Of a stretch of 64,000 bases of DNA, positions 13,671-42,233 are shown one piece after another (positions within the stretch are counted from its first letter, which is position 1; every line of letters begins with the position of its first letter). The DNA lies in the NCBI GenBank assembly GCA_963834025.1, contig CAWIAI010000008.1, positions 20,080 to 84,079 on the forward strand. Direction: 5' to 3'. Origin of the DNA: an uncultured Acidobacteriota bacterium. GTDB lineage: Bacteria > Acidobacteriota > Terriglobia > Acidiferrales > UBA7541. Under the pieces are notes generated by a model. It saw only the letters and a list, made by a program, of their open reading frames with translations. It was not told the origin of the DNA and searched no databases. The position numbers and the translations under genes are program-made.

Positions 13671-13904
13671 TCAATTTCGCAGGGGTAGCTCATCGCCAAC
13701 CGTCCGGTCCGAGGTACCGGCGACAAGCTGCGCCAATTCGGATGCCGGGATTGTCGCTTGCGCAAAGCCGCACTCCAAGCAGACTAATAATCTCGGGTTC
13801 ACCCTGACGCTGGGTTTGTCCAGATTCTTGAGCCCTCCGAAATGCACAAGCATCTTAGTAGGAAATTCGGCTTGATTGCTGGAACTGCATGACGGACACA
13901 ACAT
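13671..13904 (-). CDS. Small zinc-ribbon-like protein
   Basis: RBS GGAGG, MLCPSC...LLVCLECG. Paralog of 19973-20179. Confidence 0.65.
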   Translation of the reverse strand: MLCPSCSSSNQAEFPTKMLVHFGGLKNLDKPSVRVNPRLLVCLECGFAQATIPASELAQLVAGTSDRTVGDELPLRN

Positions 13905-14077
13905 AGAACCTCCTTGGGGACAGGAGTGCGAAGAGGCAAAGCTCTGAAGGTGCAACGTACGCTAGCTTAACTGGGTTTCCGTGTGCCGTTCACGCCTTGG
14001 TTGCTCCGCCGACCAGCGCAGCCGAATCCGTGAGACTACTTGCCACCTTGGTCGCAGCCGTCGTCACAATGCGAACA

Positions 14078-14103
14078 AGTCCTGGTAAACGCGGTAACCC
14101 GAC
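14078..14103 (+). repeat. Compact double dif-like site, left part (interrupted by IS110 element B)
   Basis: AGTCCTGGTAA-ACGCGG-TAA-CCCGAC. Continues at 15679 as TTATCGGGAAT. Same layout as the uninterrupted copy at 32338-32374. Confidence 0.85.
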
Positions 14104-14176
14104 GCAATATAAAGGGCGCCCCTTGTGGAGTAAGGTTTGAGTGCTCGCTCAACCGCTCCAGAGGAGGAACGCCCTT

Positions 14177-15244
14177 ATGACCAGCACTAAATATATCGGC
14201 ATGGATGTGCACAAAGAAAGTATTTCGATTGCCGTCAGGAATGCCGCCGGCAAGGTGGTGATGGAATGCGTCATCGAAACCAAAGCCAGCATGATTCTGC
14301 AGTTCATCGACGGGCTGCGCGGAGATGTACAGGTCACCTTTGAAGAAGGCACCTCAGCCGCCTGGTTGTACGACTTGTTGAAACCGCACGTCACAAAACT
14401 GGTGGTGTGCGATCCACGAAAAAACAAGTCCATGCGAGAAGGCAACCAGAACGACAAGATTGATGCCCGCCGATTGGCGGAGCTGCTACGCCTCAATCAT
14501 CTCACTCCCGTTTATCACGGTGAGCATGGCCTACGAACCCTGAAGGAGCTGGTACGGAGTTATCTGACCATCACGAAAGATCTCGGACGGGTGATGAGCC
14601 GCGTGAAAGCCATTTATCGCAGTTGGGCCATTCCTTGTACCGGCAAACAGGTCTATGCCCCTCGGCATCGGGCCGAATGGCTCGCGAAGATCGACGAACC
14701 GGGAGTACGCCGGCGGGCCGAGTTTTATTACCAACAACTCGATGCGCTGCGAGTGGTGCGCCAGCAAGTGCGGCGGGATCTGCTGGCGGAGAGCAAGAAG
14801 CACAAAGCCTGGAAACACCTCTGTGAGATTCCCTCGATCGGGCCGATCCGCGCGGCGGTGTTGCTGGGCATTCTGCAGACCCCGCATCGTTTCCGCACGA
14901 AACGCCCGCTGTGGAATTACGGCGGTTTAGCCATCGAGATGCACAGCAGCGCCGATCACCGTAGTGTCGACGGACAACTGCAACGATCCCGGAAGAACGT
15001 CTTGGTGCGGGGCCTCAACCGCAACTGCAATCACGATCTGAAGAACCTATTTAAGGGCGCGGCCGCCGTGGCTTCCAGCAAGCCGGGCCCCTTTCAGGAG
15101 TTCTACACGGGTTTAGTGGCCAAGGGTATGAGGCCAGAGATGGCGCGACTGACCTTGGCCAGAAAGATTGCCACCATTGTTTTGCTGGTGTGGAAGAAAG
15201 GGGTGTGCTTCGACGCCCAATATCTGAAACCACAAACAGCTTGA
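14177..15244 (+). CDS. IS110-family transposase/recombinase (distinct from element A)
   Basis: RBS GAGGAGG. YIGMDVH, FEEG, NDKIDA (DEDD), EIPSIGPIRA HhH-like motif. Confidence 0.95.
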   Translation: MTSTKYIGMDVHKESISIAVRNAAGKVVMECVIETKASMILQFIDGLRGDVQVTFEEGTSAAWLYDLLKPHVTKLVVCDPRKNKSMREGNQNDKIDARRLAELLRLNHLTPVYHGEHGLRTLKELVRSYLTITKDLGRVMSRVKAIYRSWAIPCTGKQVYAPRHRAEWLAKIDEPGVRRRAEFYYQQLDALRVVRQQVRRDLLAESKKHKAWKHLCEIPSIGPIRAAVLLGILQTPHRFRTKRPLWNYGGLAIEMHSSADHRSVDGQLQRSRKNVLVRGLNRNCNHDLKNLFKGAAAVASSKPGPFQEFYTGLVAKGMRPEMARLTLARKIATIVLLVWKKGVCFDAQYLKPQTA

Positions 15245-15450
15245 GTGTCTTGATCGAATCCGCTCCATCCCGGGGATTCTCTCTGGCGGTGGCCGTGGGT
15301 TCTCGAGACACTCTGGTTCGAGAGCGAGTCTCAGCCGATTAGTTAGGCGCTGCGTGCTTCGGGCACCCAGTCTCACACCCGACTCTAGGCCCTCTCGGAT
15401 AACCAGAAAAAGCTATGGGCCACGAGTCCCGGATAGAACTATGGTCGCCA
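15245..15450 (+). ncRNA. Predicted bridge/seek RNA of element B (limits approximate)
   Basis: Stem CTGGTT-CGAGAG/CTCTCG-AACCAG encloses CCGATTAGT (15335-15343), a TTCG-capped hairpin and ACCCGAC (15377-15383), matching both sides of its target. ATAGAAC (15433-15439) matches its right end. Confidence 0.7.
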
Positions 15451-15678
15451 CTTGACCGCCGTTCTGCTTTGCTGGTTTCGGAACTGACAGGCTTCGTTGC
15501 GGACAGGCAATGAAAACCGCTGGTAGAGGAAACCCAAACCGTTGGGTCACAGTGCCCAACAACCGAGCACATGGCGCGGAAGGTCAGAACAGATCCTGCT
15601 CCATCACGTGGGCTGAGAAACAAGAAAAGTTCCAGCCAACGCAGGAGTGTTTTTTCTTGACTTCTACCTTTATAGAAC

Positions 15679-15689
15679 TTATCGGGAAT
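15679..15689 (-). repeat. Outer arm of the interrupted compact site
   Basis: TTATCGGGAAT, reverse complement ATTCCCGATAA. Confidence 0.8.
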
Positions 15690-15811
15690 TAGCCAAGCGT
15701 GGAGCAGTGGTCAGCTACCGATGAGGCTTTTGTAAGCAGCGATTCCCAGCCGCCAGCAGCTTGCGACTTTAGTGGCTGCTCGCCCAGGAGAAGCACTGTA
15801 AGAAATGACAG

Positions 15812-17029
15812 TTGGGTCCTCGCGAACCATCCACTATCCTAGCGTTCCAACGAAAACAGGTGAGTTCCAGGAATTCTATGTCCTTCATGGACAATTCGAG
15901 CCGTATTGCCGGCTCATTTTTTATCTCGGCCCCGGTGCGTTTGGCTTGGCTCGGCCTGATCGTCCTGATTTGCAGTTCTCCCAGTCGAGCACAAACGGAA
16001 CAATCACCTGCCCGTCTGGCTGTGGAGAACAACCCACCCAATTCCCCCACACCTAAGATGGCCATCGACGCGCCAGAAGATCAGCAGAAAGTCCCCGGAA
16101 CCATCACCGGAAGCGTGGTTGGCCAGGATGGAATAGCCGTGGTCGGCGCCAAGGTGAAGCTCACTCAAGAAAATCAGTCGGTCAGCCAGGAAGTTACGTC
16201 CAGTGAAGACGGTCAATTCACGTTTACGAACGTAGCGCCCGGATCGTTTCAGCTGCTGATCACCTCGGAGGGCTTCGCAGCCCATACTTCCACAGGGGAA
16301 CTGCACTCTGGGGAAAACTTCACGGTACCCCAGGTCTCGATGGTTCTTGCGACAAACGCTACTGAAATTCGTGTCGAAGTCTCGACCATCGAAATCGCGC
16401 AAGAACAGTTGAAGGATGAAGAGAAGCAGCGCGTGATGGGCGTCATTCCGAATTTTTATGTCACCTACGTCCCTAACGCAGCACCACTCACGCCCAAACA
16501 AAAATATAATCTGGCCTGGAGACTGAACATCGATCCCGTCTCATTCCTCATGGCTGGACAGACAGCGGGAATTCAGCAAGCGCAAAATGAATTCAGTGGA
16601 TATGGACAAGGCGCAGAAGGTTATGCAAAACGCTATGCGGCAACCTATGCGAACTTCACCATCAGCAACTTCCTGGGCAGCGCGGTGTTCCCCTCCATTT
16701 TCAAACAAGACCCCCGTTATTTCTACAAGGGCACAGGTACTACGAAATCTCGAGTCCTATACGCGCTAGCGAATGCGGTGATTTGCAAAAGCGACGGCGG
16801 TCACTGGCAGGTGAATTATTCGGGCATCATCGGGAGCCTGGCCTCCGGCGGCATCTCCAATCTGTTCTACCCGGCAAGCGATCGCAATGGGCCCGCATTA
16901 ACATTCGAAAATACCGCGATGAGCATCGGGAGTACCGCAATTTTCAATCTGATGCAGGAATTTGTGCTACGGAAGCTAACGCCCAAAGTTCCGAACACTC
17001 CCGACCCCACGAATCCGAACCTACCGTAA
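15812..17029 (+). CDS. Carboxypeptidase regulatory-like domain membrane protein (start may be further downstream)
   Basis: GTITGSVVGQDGIAVVGAKVKL...GQFTFTNVAPGSFQLLIT; C-terminal FKQDPRYFYKGTG segment. Confidence 0.8.
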   Translation: MGPREPSTILAFQRKQVSSRNSMSFMDNSSRIAGSFFISAPVRLAWLGLIVLICSSPSRAQTEQSPARLAVENNPPNSPTPKMAIDAPEDQQKVPGTITGSVVGQDGIAVVGAKVKLTQENQSVSQEVTSSEDGQFTFTNVAPGSFQLLITSEGFAAHTSTGELHSGENFTVPQVSMVLATNATEIRVEVSTIEIAQEQLKDEEKQRVMGVIPNFYVTYVPNAAPLTPKQKYNLAWRLNIDPVSFLMAGQTAGIQQAQNEFSGYGQGAEGYAKRYAATYANFTISNFLGSAVFPSIFKQDPRYFYKGTGTTKSRVLYALANAVICKSDGGHWQVNYSGIIGSLASGGISNLFYPASDRNGPALTFENTAMSIGSTAIFNLMQEFVLRKLTPKVPNTPDPTNPNLP

Positions 17030-32337: not shown

Positions 32338-32374
32338 TTGGACGATTAACGCGGTAATCCGACGAATCAGGAGT
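32338..32374. repeat. Compact double dif-like site, uninterrupted
   Basis: TTGGACGATTA-ACGCGG-TAA-TCCGAC-GAATCAGGAGT. Confidence 0.75.
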
Positions 32375-40885: not shown

Positions 40886-42233
40886 GGCTCTGCACAAGAA
40901 TTCGTGGAGGCCCGCATTTTAGGCTGCTTTCTGAAGAACGATGAATTCGGTCTTGGTGACCGCCATGCGTTGGGCCTTGAGCAGCAGATAGCCGAGATTC
41001 TTGTAGCCGCGGCCCCTTCGAAGAAGGGTTTTGATGTTGCCGTTGATGGCTTCCACCACTCCGAAGCGGACCTTGGTGCGGCAGTAGTTGAGGATGCCGT
41101 CGAGGTGATCCAACAGCATGTAAGCGAGCTTTTGAAAGGGTTCCAGGCGTTGCCAACGCAGTTGATCGATCCAACTTTGCAAGTACCGCAGCATGGCTCC
41201 TTCATAGCAGTAGGTCCACAACCGCTCCAAGCTTTCCTTTAGAAGGTAGGCTTTCATCACCCGCCGGTTGAGGGCGAACAGATCGTTTAACTGCTGCCGT
41301 TTCTGGCTGTCCAGATTCATCCAGCGCGTCAACAGCAGCCAACGTTTGCCTTTCACTACCCCGCGCATGCGCCCGCCTTTGCGGAAAAACTCCGCCCGGC
41401 GCACTTCATCGATGGCTTTGTTGGCGTGCTGCAAAACGTGAAACTTGTCGAACACGATGCGGCCGTTCTGCGCCCATTGCGCAATGCTGTTGGTGAATGG
41501 CCGCCACATATCCACGCACGCCGCCTCGATGCGCTTCCGCTGGCTTTCCTTCAGTTGCGTTCGAAAAAACTCATCGAGCGTTTCCTGCTTACGATCCTGC
41601 CCGAACCACAGGGGCTCTCCGGTCTCCAAATTACTGACCACGGTGATGAACTTCATCTGCTTGCCGAAGTAAATCTCATCCACGCCCATTTGTATCAGGG
41701 GATCCTTGCGACGCGTCGCACTCCAACGCTGCAGATACCGCAGGTCGATCGCGCGCACCGTGCTGGCCGCCAGTCCAAACTGCCTGGCCACCTGTCGAAC
41801 CGACGCGCTTTCACACGCCAACCCCACGGCATCCTCAAAGTCCTTGCTAAACGGCGCTTTGCTCGGCAATTGCGGTACTTTCTCGACGCGCACCCCACAC
41901 TGCGGACAGCACACCCGGTACAGCTCGAGGATCACCGTGGTCTGATACTTCCTCCAGGGTAAGTCGCGCACCTCGCGCTGGTAATAGTCATGGGCGTCAG
42001 TAAACTTCCTTCCGCATCCTGAACAGATCAGTTTGCGGTTCCCACGCTTCCGTCGCACCCACAAACGCAACGTCTTGGCGGTTTCATCGATTTCGTGCCG
42101 AAACACTCGGTAACCTGGCCAATCCAAGATTCTCGTGAACTCGTTGTCGCGCATTCCGCCGAGTCTAGCCGAACCTGCCTCATTGCGGAAACCCGCTCTC
42201 CTATTGGCCCGCTACGAATTCCTGCTCAGAGCC
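40886..42233 (-). mobile_element. ISL3-family element
   Basis: IRs GGCTCTGCACAAGAATTC / GAATTCCTGCTCAGAGCC. 8-bp target duplication TCAAAAAC at 40878-40885 and 42234-42241. Confidence 0.95.
40919..42154 (-). CDS. ISL3-family transposase
   Basis: CSGC...CPQC zinc finger, GVDE, CVDMW, FDKFH, EAINGNIK...RGRGY. Confidence 0.95.
   Translation of the reverse strand: MRDNEFTRILDWPGYRVFRHEIDETAKTLRLWVRRKRGNRKLICSGCGRKFTDAHDYYQREVRDLPWRKYQTTVILELYRVCCPQCGVRVEKVPQLPSKAPFSKDFEDAVGLACESASVRQVARQFGLAASTVRAIDLRYLQRWSATRRKDPLIQMGVDEIYFGKQMKFITVVSNLETGEPLWFGQDRKQETLDEFFRTQLKESQRKRIEAACVDMWRPFTNSIAQWAQNGRIVFDKFHVLQHANKAIDEVRRAEFFRKGGRMRGVVKGKRWLLLTRWMNLDSQKRQQLNDLFALNRRVMKAYLLKESLERLWTYCYEGAMLRYLQSWIDQLRWQRLEPFQKLAYMLLDHLDGILNYCRTKVRFGVVEAINGNIKTLLRRGRGYKNLGYLLLKAQRMAVTKTEFIVLQKAA

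What the first reader, a model, noticed from the sequence alone, without database searches (positions are those of the whole stretch)
14078..15689. A second, unrelated IS110 recombinase with different guides converges on the same repeat
Seen: element B has a clearly different transposase, different IRs and an AC core, yet removing it restores AGTCCTGGTAA-ACGCGG-TAA-CCCGAC-TTATCGGGAAT. Its 3' region carries CCGATTAGT (8/9 match to the bottom-strand target CCGATAAGT) and ACCCGAC (7/7 match to the top strand) in a stem-loop-stem. It cuts at the spacer/outer-arm boundary, about 14 bp from where element A inserts. Geometry from core to IR (6 and 4 bp) can be drawn identically for both elements. Inference: independent RNA-guided targeting of one repeat implies the repeat is abundant and conserved, as with IS1111 elements that target integron attC sites. 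Only the right-donor guide (ATAGAAC) was found; the left-donor guide was not resolved.
Basis: partly seen in the sequence, partly recalled or inferred. Interest (0 to 1): 0.82.

Follow-up and report, generated by a model that had tools for sequence, protein, structure and literature searches.

The report
RNA-guided IS targeting a palindromic repeat
Element B is an active IS110/IS1111-type insertion sequence whose own 3' non-coding RNA carries short guides that match its landing site in an extragenic palindromic repeat. It is a clear new example of a mechanism described in 2024, not a new kind of system.

Summary
Element B spans window 14104-15678 and is a 1575-bp IS110-family element. It has a DEDD/Ser transposase (14177-15244), 8-bp sub-terminal inverted repeats, a duplicated AC core and a 434-nt 3' non-coding region. 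The genome holds 16 copies with both ends, 14 of them intact, at about 99.8% identity. All sit at ACCCGAC|TAATCGGGA with otherwise unrelated flanks.

Across 58 unique relatives, in two sister lineages of this genome and in Acidobacteriota MAGs, they covary with the left flank, the right flank and the right end. Permutation tests put both target guides about 12 SD above chance. The right-donor guide shows four guide/end states that each match.

Element A (23% identical transposase) carries its own guides, which match a crossover 14 nt upstream in the same repeat.

The repeat is an extragenic doublet of two inverted sites, each built as 11-nt arm, 6-nt spacer, 11-nt arm. It looks like a REP/BIME element, but no RAYT gene lies next to any copy. 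Sister lineages B2 and B3 and a tyrosine-recombinase element also land in it.

"Unrelated" overstates the A/B difference, and the left-donor guide remains unresolved. This is a new member of a known kind. Precedents are ISPpu9/ISPpu10 on REP and ISKpn4/ISPa25 on attC.

The parts
14078..14103 (+). Left half of the target: a collapsed repeat doublet, outer arm-ACGCGG-TAA-CCCGAC. The last 7 nt, ACCCGAC, are the left target including the AC core (14102-14103).
   Evidence: ACCCGAC is invariant in 15 of 16 copies; one copy has ATCCGAC.
14104..15678 (+). Element B: 1575 bp, counting the right-hand AC core copy at 15677-15678.
   Evidence: There are 14 intact and 2 IS-interrupted copies at about 99.8-100% identity, all with the same junctions.
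14108..14115 (+). Left sub-terminal inverted repeat, TATAAAGG.
   Evidence: Conserved in 60+ homologous loci.
14177..15244 (+). IS110-family DEDD/Ser transposase, 355 aa.
   Evidence: Pfam PF01548 and PF02371. NCBIfam NF033542 scores 119.9 bits, below its cut-off of 140. D, E, DxxD and the catalytic Ser align with IS621.
15312..15324 (+). 5' strand of the stem that closes the target-binding loop (TCTGGTT + CGAGAG).
   Evidence: Pairs with 15392-15407. 96-100% paired in 64 sequences, with 3 compensatory columns.
15335..15343 (+). Guide 1, CCGATTAGT. It is the reverse complement of AC + TAATCGG and would pair with the top strand of core plus right target (RTG equivalent).
   Evidence: Match to own flank is 5.72 of 7, against a permuted mean of 4.05 and a maximum of 4.66 in 10,000 permutations.
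15350..15370 (+). Inner hairpin capping the target-binding loop (CTGCGTGC-TTCGG-GCACCCAG).
   Evidence: 76% paired in the alignment; the alignment is imperfect here.
15377..15383 (+). Guide 2, ACCCGAC. It equals left target plus core and would pair with the bottom strand (LTG equivalent).
   Evidence: Match to own flank is 4.09 of 5, against a permuted mean of 2.82 and a maximum of 3.29.
15392..15407 (+). 3' strand of the closing stem (CTCTCG, GAT bulge, AACCAGA).
15417..15429 (+). Small hairpin of the donor-side module (GGGC-CACGA-GTCC).
   Evidence: 98% paired, with a GC to AU compensatory change in 16 sequences.
15433..15439 (+). Guide 3, ATAGAAC. It equals the last 5 nt of the right end plus the core (donor guide).
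   Evidence: Covaries with the right end in four states: ATAGAAC, ATAGGAC, ATGGAAC and AGAGAAC.
15598..15655 (+). Terminator-like hairpin followed by a T-run, just before the right end.
   Evidence: -18.4 kcal/mol with z = -1.3, so weak on its own. The same hairpin and T-run appear in the homologues printed.
15657..15662 (+). Outward-facing TTGACT. In a circle junction it would lie 17 nt from CAATAT of the left end, giving a possible junction promoter.
   Evidence: Read from the sequence. This is inference by analogy with IS621 and ISPpu10 (PMC12288879) and was not tested.
15667..15674 (+). Right sub-terminal inverted repeat, CCTTTATA.
15679..15689 (+). Right half of the target, TTATCGGGAAT (outer arm of the right-hand site).
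24241..25612 (-). Element A: 1372 bp, TG core, transposase at 25570-24479. Its guides are TACCGGACA (24497-24489) and GCACTTG (24467-24461). Its right flank TACGGTTATCCGAC|TAACCAGG is an unoccupied B site.

Best explanation
Element B is an active IS1111-type member of the IS110 family.

Proposed mechanism:
- The DEDD/Ser recombinase is expressed together with a structured RNA from the 3' non-coding region. This RNA is a bridge RNA, also called a seekRNA.
- In that RNA, a 13-bp stem closes a large internal loop that holds both target guides.
- The 5' strand of the loop (CCGAUUAGU) pairs with the top strand of AC+TAATCGG.
- The 3' strand of the loop (ACCCGAC) pairs with the bottom strand of the left target.
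- A second module presents AUAGAAC, which matches the right end of the element plus the core.
- Recombination between the circular donor junction (..TATAGA-AC-GCAATA..) and the target takes place at the shared AC dinucleotide. This leaves AC at both junctions.

The target of about 16 nt lies at the spacer/outer-arm boundary of the right-hand site of an extragenic palindromic doublet. Element A, with another scaffold and a TG core, is guided to a point 14 nt upstream in the same doublet.

Shown here: the anatomy, the site specificity, the conserved scaffold, and guide/flank and guide/end covariation.

Inferred from the family: that the guides act as RNA, the circular intermediate, and the chemistry.
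For: - Transposase domains and catalytic residues are present.
- The 16 copies with both ends (14 intact) have identical junctions and unrelated outer flanks. Their site consensus is the exact complement of guide 1.
- 22 unoccupied sites match the target pattern.
- The conserved RNA core is found in 80 of 80 fetched homologous loci and in lineages B2 and B3.
- Guides change with targets. B2 has TAAGCGCGT/GATAAAC for GATAAAC|GCG[GC]TTA. B3 has CCGGACAAGT for AC|TTGTCCGG. L050 has CGCAGAAGT/TGCTGAC for TGCTGAC|TTCTGCG.
- Permutation tests put both guides about 12 SD above chance.
- The donor guide tracks four variants of the right end.
- The closing stem is 96-100% paired with compensatory changes.
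- The guide complementary to the top strand lies 5' of the guide complementary to the bottom strand. This order and the 3' location of the non-coding region match IS1111-type seekRNAs (PMC11187229).
Against: - There is no transcript evidence.
- No sigma-70-like promoter was found for the RNA, and no Rfam family matches.
- The left-donor guide could not be found.
- The loci used in the covariation tests are related to each other, so the permutation figures overstate independence.
- B scores below NCBIfam's curated cut-off for the IS110 model, 119.9 against 140 bits.
Confidence: 0.9

Rival explanations
1. Site choice is made by the protein alone, by sequence-specific DNA binding. The guide-like matches in the 3' region are incidental, or are pieces of captured target.
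For: No expression data could be obtained. The repeat is a palindrome that a dimeric protein could read. The left end shows no RNA match.
Against: The guide positions lie 240-340 bp inside the element within a conserved scaffold. They change in step with the flanks in lineages whose transposases are 66-93% identical. Some relatives with other guides insert in sequence unlike the repeat, for example L050 and L038.
Confidence: 0.03
2. The 'repeat' is not an independent target. It is instead part of the ends of these elements, or a footprint they leave, so the apparent convergence would be an artefact of where the boundaries were drawn.
For: Most unoccupied B sites lie directly next to the end of some other IS. 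The sites cluster in IS-rich islands.
Against: - Uninterrupted doublets with no element exist, for example C8:455759-455834 and C10:36570-36647.
- The segment varies between near-identical copies of A and of B.
- The same motif flanks B relatives in many other genomes.
- The strict site also occurs in congeners searched.
Confidence: 0.04
3. This rival concerns what the target is, not how B works. The doublet may be a pair of tyrosine-recombinase core sites, with an 11-6-11 layout like dif or the two simple sites of attC. It would then be tied to the multi-copy 299-aa recombinase element and would not be a REP/BIME.
For: - Each site is an 11-nt arm, a 6-nt spacer and an 11-nt arm, and sites occur as inverted pairs with a variable linker.
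- A 2.5-kb element encoding a 299-aa tyrosine recombinase integrates at CCGACTT|ATCGGG, with GACTT at both junctions.
- No RAYT gene lies next to the repeat.
- The repeat is patchy among congeners.
Against: No recombinase gene lies next to most doublets. No cassette-array organisation with one orientation was established beyond one short stretch, C8:452-456.5 kb. The sites are extragenic and dispersed, like REPs.
Confidence: 0.25

Closest known systems
IS1111-group elements with a 3' seekRNA or bridge RNA (ISEc11, ISKpn4, ISPst6, ISPa25, ISPa11; Siddiquee et al. 2024, PMC11187229; Durrant et al. 2024, PMC11208160)
   Same: It has a DEDD/Ser transposase, sub-terminal inverted repeats and a long non-coding region downstream of tnp. 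The two short target matches overlap at a dinucleotide core, with the top-strand complement lying 5' of the bottom-strand complement. The target is a conserved repeated sequence. ISKpn4 and ISPa25 (46% identical) share one attC target.
   Different: The host phylum is Acidobacteriota. The RNA scaffold matches no Rfam family. The core is AC. A and B are only 23% identical and cut the same repeat at different points. No left-donor match was found.
ISPpu9 / ISPpu10 of Pseudomonas putida KT2440 (PMC12288879), and IS621 of E. coli, which target REP/BIME
   Same: Two diverged IS110-family elements in one genome insert into the same extragenic palindromic repeat and prefer inverted REP pairs. A possible junction promoter is built from a -35 in the right end and a -10 in the left end.
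   Different: Those elements belong to the IS110 group: the RNA lies upstream, the core is CT, and both use the same target position. Here the layout is IS1111-type, and different positions are used by different lineages. The repeat has no associated RAYT and only about 120-150 sites.
IS4321 / IS5075, which target the 38-bp terminal repeats of Tn21-family transposons (cited in PMC11208160)
   Same: An IS1111-type element inserts at one fixed position and orientation in a repeat that belongs to, or travels with, other mobile DNA.
   Different: The target here is a free-standing doublet that is mostly extragenic. It has not been shown to be the end of a transposon.

Membership tests
IS110 family (RNA-guided DEDD recombinases) | N-terminal RuvC-like DEDD domain plus C-terminal Transposase_20 domain with a catalytic Ser | tested here: met
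   PF01548 at 5e-15 and PF02371 at 4e-10. D, E, DxxD and Ser align with IS621 D11, E60, D102, D105 and S241. The NCBIfam IS110 model covers positions 1-341 of 343 but scores 119.9 bits, below its cut-off of 140.
IS110 family (RNA-guided DEDD recombinases) | Site-specific insertion with a dinucleotide core present at both junctions and no other target duplication | tested here: met
   AC lies at both junctions in 16 copies, and unoccupied sites hold a single AC.
IS110 family (RNA-guided DEDD recombinases) | Non-coding RNA with loops complementary to target and donor | tested here: inconclusive
   Both target guides and one donor guide are supported by covariation. The second donor guide was not found.
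IS1111 group | Sub-terminal inverted repeats of 7-17 bp | tested here: met
   TATAAAGG at 14108-14115 and CCTTTATA at 15667-15674, conserved across the homologues.
IS1111 group | Long non-coding region and guides downstream of tnp, with the top-strand complement 5' of the bottom-strand complement | tested here: met
   The 3' non-coding region is 434 nt against 73 nt at the 5' side. Guide 1 lies before guide 2. The criterion is taken from PMC11187229.
IS1111 group | Transposase falls inside the IS1111 clade in a phylogeny with ISfinder references | not tested
REP / BIME (REPIN) elements, as a label for the target | Short imperfect palindrome, many copies, extragenic | tested here: met
   177 sites against 25 in the reversed-sequence control. 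12% of sites lie inside ORFs of at least 150 aa, against 83% of genome bases.
REP / BIME (REPIN) elements, as a label for the target | Occurs as inverted pairs separated by a short linker | tested here: met
   12 of 14 convergent pairs combine one ACGCGG-type site with one GTCGGG-type site; the other two are ACGCGG/ACGCGG. Uninterrupted pairs span 62-78 bp.
REP / BIME (REPIN) elements, as a label for the target | Cognate RAYT (Y1 transposase) gene flanked by the repeat | tested here: not met
   The genome has one PF01797 hit, at C15:1923705-1923959, and no repeat site lies next to it.

The most novel reading that the evidence does not exclude
The doublet of about 80 bp may be a shared 'safe harbour' that co-resident mobile elements divide between them. 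The B lineage would have split into B, B2 and B3 by retuning 7-9-nt guides to different AC dinucleotides of the same doublet. Element A, its transposase-less mini-derivatives and a tyrosine-recombinase element take further positions. If so, guide evolution would be driven by competition for, or avoidance of, occupied positions, not by drift. The doublet itself might be a recombinase site pair that spreads together with the islands.
Probability: 0.25. Interest if true: 0.55.

Novelty: new member of a known kind. Interest (0 to 1): 0.36.

Why it matters
This locus gives a clean natural data set for the bridge/seekRNA rule in a phylum where it has not been described. There is one scaffold, dozens of guide variants, and targets readable from the flanks. 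Three sister lineages have been re-aimed within one repeat.

That makes it useful for building a covariance model of this RNA class. It also helps annotate acidobacterial MAGs, where this element is common: 526 relatives were confirmed in one scan. It can also be used to ask how far IS1111-type donor recognition depends on RNA.

It does not change the understanding of the mechanism.

Tried and rejected
- **Rfam:** a search of 13900-15900 at E <= 1 gave only chance hits.
- **Global and consensus folds:** the global fold of the 3' region and the RNAalifold consensus were too sparse to define the loops. Helices were counted by hand instead.
- **Left-donor guide:** all words of 6-9 nt shared between the non-coding region and the RE-core-LE junction, on either strand, were listed for 16 diverse loci. 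Only the right-donor guide recurred.
- **Upstream CGTTCCAT / CGTTCTCT:** these words looked like a complement of guide 3. The alignment showed them to be part of a conserved 5' hairpin, so they were dropped.
- **Downstream CGTTCT:** this word can pair with guide 3 in B but does not covary with it.
- **AAAAAGC (15407-15413):** this is a weak candidate for the left-donor guide. Its last two bases fit GC/GU against left ends GC/AC in B, B2 and B3, but not in L071. It does not follow the GCAA to GCGA change (my reading).
- **RAYT link:** the single Y1 transposase gene is not flanked by the repeat.
- **Promoter scan:** no sigma-70-like promoter was found inside the element.
Full report
**1. What is there**

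The window lies at G000:C8:20080-84079 of an 8.06-Mb, 15-contig genome. The closest homologous loci come from Acidobacteriota (Terriglobia/Acidoferrales) MAGs.

Between 14104 and 15678 lies a 1575-bp element. Its parts are:
- a 73-nt left end;
- an ORF at 14177-15244;
- a 434-nt 3' non-coding region.

The ORF matches Pfam DEDD_Tnp_IS110 and Transposase_20. Its alignment with IS621 places the D, E, DxxD and catalytic Ser residues correctly. NCBIfam's IS110 model aligns over its full length but scores 119.9 bits, below its cut-off of 140, so this is a divergent branch. Sub-terminal inverted repeats TATAAAGG and CCTTTATA lie at 14108-14115 and 15667-15674.

**2. Ends, core and site specificity**

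BLAST against the whole genome finds 14 intact copies and 2 copies interrupted by another IS, at 99.8-100% identity. Extracting both junctions of all 16 gives the same boundaries in every case..ACCCGAC|GCAATATAAAGG.. and ..CCTTTATAGAAC|T[AT]A[TC]C[AG]GGA...

Outside about 17 bp the flanks are unrelated, so these are independent insertions. AC lies at both junctions. Twenty-two unoccupied sites matching A[CT]CCGACT[AT][AG][TC]C[AG]GG carry a single AC.

The site logo of the 16 copies is ACCCGAC|TAATCGGGA. Positions -7 to -1 are invariant except for one C>T, and position +2 is A in 12 copies and T in 4.

**3. The guides**

CCGATTAGT (15335-15343) is the exact reverse complement of AC+TAATCGG, the consensus site; this copy has TTATCGG, which explains the 8 of 9. 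ACCCGAC (15377-15383) equals the left target plus the core. ATAGAAC (15433-15439) equals the last bases of the right end plus the core.

The decisive evidence is comparative. The genome holds two sister lineages:
- **B2** (66% aa identity, 9 copies) inserts at GATAAAC|GCG[GC]TTAYCG.
- **B3** (about 70% aa identity) inserts at ..CAC|TTGTCCGG.

Both were defined. Their 3' regions align with B over about 165 nt. At the aligned guide positions B2 carries TAAGCGCGT and GATAAAC, and B3 carries CCGGACAAGT and ATTCCAC.

One scan of genome contigs confirmed 526 relatives and returned 80 loci with 70-93% aa identity. All 80 contain the RNA core.

For 58 unique locus/guide combinations I compared each guide with its own flank and with permuted flanks:

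| Guide | Match to own flank | Permuted mean | Maximum of 10,000 permutations |
|---|---|---|---|
| Guide 1 vs right flank | 5.72 of 7 | 4.05 | 4.66 |
| Guide 2 vs left flank | 4.09 of 5 | 2.82 | 3.29 |

Some cases are striking. L050 has CGCAGAAGT/TGCTGAC with the site TGCTGAC|TTCTGCG. L038 has TTAGAAC with the left flank TTAGAAC. L011 has ACGCCAC with the left flank ACGCCAC.

Guide 3 tracks the right end in four states:
- ATAGAAC with TATAGAAC;
- ATAGGAC with TATAGGAC (B3, L071);
- ATGGAAC with TATGGAAC (L066, L070, L073, L076, L077, L079);
- AGAGAAC with TAGAGAAC (L003, L005).

The loci are related to each other, so the permutation figures overstate independence. The pattern nevertheless recurs across separate clades.

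**4. Structure**

A 13-bp stem pairs 15312-15324 with 15392-15407, with a GAT bulge. It is 96-100% paired in 64 sequences and has three columns with compensatory change. It is also recovered in the single-sequence fold.

This stem encloses guide 1, an inner hairpin (15350-15370) and guide 2.

A small hairpin (15417-15429) is 98% paired, with a GC to AU exchange in 16 sequences, and it precedes guide 3.

All three guides have similar flanks, GAGUCYC.. before them and ..UAKG after them. This is my reading.

The guide complementary to the top strand lies 5' of the guide complementary to the bottom strand. This is the reverse of IS621 and matches what was reported for IS1111-type seekRNAs.

No Rfam family matches.

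A terminator-like hairpin and T-run (15598-15655) precede an outward TTGACT (15657-15662). In a circle junction this would lie 17 nt from CAATAT in the left end. That suggests a junction promoter by analogy only (PMC12288879).

**5. Element A and the shared repeat**

Element A spans 25612-24241 on the minus strand, and its transposase is 23% identical to B's (E = 9e-13). It ends ..GTTAGAGATG|TACGGTTATCCGAC|TAACCAGG.., so its right flank is an unoccupied B site.

Five of the 16 B copies lie directly downstream of A-type ends.

A carries TACCGGACA (24497-24489) and GCACTTG (24467-24461). These are the reverse complement of TG+TCCGGTA and the left flank plus TG.

The two crossovers are 14 nt apart.

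**6. The repeat**

The repeat is a doublet of about 70-90 nt. It has two inverted sites built as arm-spacer-arm, joined by a variable linker. The left site has the form GTCCYGRTWA-ACGCGG-TTAYCGG. The right site, read on the other strand, has GTCGGG as its spacer.

- A loose pattern finds 177 sites, against 25 in the reversed-sequence control.
- 12 of 14 convergent pairs combine one site of each spacer type; the other two pair ACGCGG-type sites.
- Only 12% of sites lie inside ORFs of at least 150 aa, against 83% of genome bases.
- The single Y1-transposase gene of the genome is not flanked by these sites.
- A strict form of the left site occurs 30 times here. It occurs 1-5 times in 8 of 24 genomes of the same genus, and in none of 16 genomes from other families that were searched.
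- The same motif flanks B relatives in many other MAGs.

I therefore call it REP/BIME-like. It meets the palindrome, extragenic and doublet criteria but not the RAYT criterion.

The copy under B is a collapsed form, outer arm-ACGCGG-TAA-CCCGAC-outer arm. An intact analogue of this form is at 32338-32374.

**7. Other users of the doublet**

| Element | Insertion point | Position in the doublet |
|---|---|---|
| B2 | GATAA-AC\|GCGG | left site |
| B3 | C-AC\|TTGTCCGG | linker/inner-arm boundary, 3 nt from A's crossover |
| A | CACWTG\|TCCGG | inner arm of the right site |
| B | CCCG-AC\|TWATCGGG | spacer/outer-arm boundary of the right site |
| Tyrosine-recombinase element | CCGACTT\|ATCGGG | 2 nt from B's site |

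The tyrosine-recombinase element is 2.5 kb and encodes a 299-aa recombinase. It has about 12 copies above 99% identity and GACTT at both junctions.

About 40 A-like mini-elements of roughly 400 bp, which lack a transposase, also occupy A's position (notes e1-5281791 and e1-5281792).

**8. Comparison with what is known**

RNA-guided target and donor recognition in IS110/IS1111 is established (PMC11208160, PMC11208158, PMC11187229). Insertion of this family into REPs is long known. Two diverged relatives sharing one repeat have been described: ISPpu9/ISPpu10 on REP, with a preference for inverted pairs (PMC12288879), and ISKpn4/ISPa25 on attC (PMC11187229).

This case adds several things:
- a different phylum;
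- an RNA scaffold that matches no Rfam family;
- a more distant pair (23% identity) cutting at different positions;
- sister lineages re-aimed within one doublet.

**9. Verdict**

- A and B are not 'unrelated'.
- The repeat is only moderately abundant.
- The phenomenon has precedents.

The left-donor guide remains unresolved, and expression is untested.

Novelty: new member of a known kind. Interest: 0.36.

Noticed in passing
Own genome, e.g. G000:C8:549839-552340; not in the window: A 2.5-kb element encodes a 299-aa tyrosine recombinase. About 12 copies exceed 99% identity and further copies are 75-80% identical. It integrates in the same repeat at CCGACTT|ATCGGG, 2 nt from B's crossover, with GACTT at both junctions.
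   Followed up: partly
window 19461-19832 and 27112-27474; about 40 more in the genome: A-like mini-elements of about 370-400 bp keep both ends and the guide-bearing 3' region but have no transposase. They are 80-99% identical to one another and sit at A's position in the doublet. They might be mobilised in trans.
   Followed up: partly
G000:C15:972495/974055 and C15:473193/470277; also L018, L028, L064: Several B-type copies are split inside the RNA gene just after guide 2. In the two own-genome copies the insert is flanked by a duplicated CTAG, which suggests another IS that targets CTAG. Both carry the same insert end.
   Followed up: no
G000:C3:601026-602380, C8:533813-535169 and others (B2); C3:275132-276880, C9:968900-970630 (B3): These are sister lineages of B with the same RNA scaffold but different guides. 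They insert at other AC dinucleotides of the same doublet.
   Followed up: yes
window 7007 (-) region; G000:C9:11974, C9:597333, C3:1058887: Another repeated element end, ..GTGTTGCGTCGACCCATTGAGACC, abuts ACCCGAC or the ACGCGG spacer. This points to a further mobile element that uses both sites of the doublet. Its coding content was not examined.
   Followed up: no
G000:C8:452367-456514: A short array of doublets lies here, all in one orientation and separated by segments of 0.6-1.2 kb. It resembles a cassette array. No integron integrase was sought nearby.
   Followed up: no
L013:about 3020-3060: In one MAG the right end of a B relative is followed directly by AC and the left end (GCGATATAAAAGGG) of a second B-type element. 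This is a head-to-tail junction like a circle junction or a tandem dimer.
   Followed up: no
window 40922-42154 (-): An ISL3-family transposase gene (DDE_Tnp_ISL3, HTH and zinc ribbon) lies here. It is unrelated to the finding.
   Followed up: no
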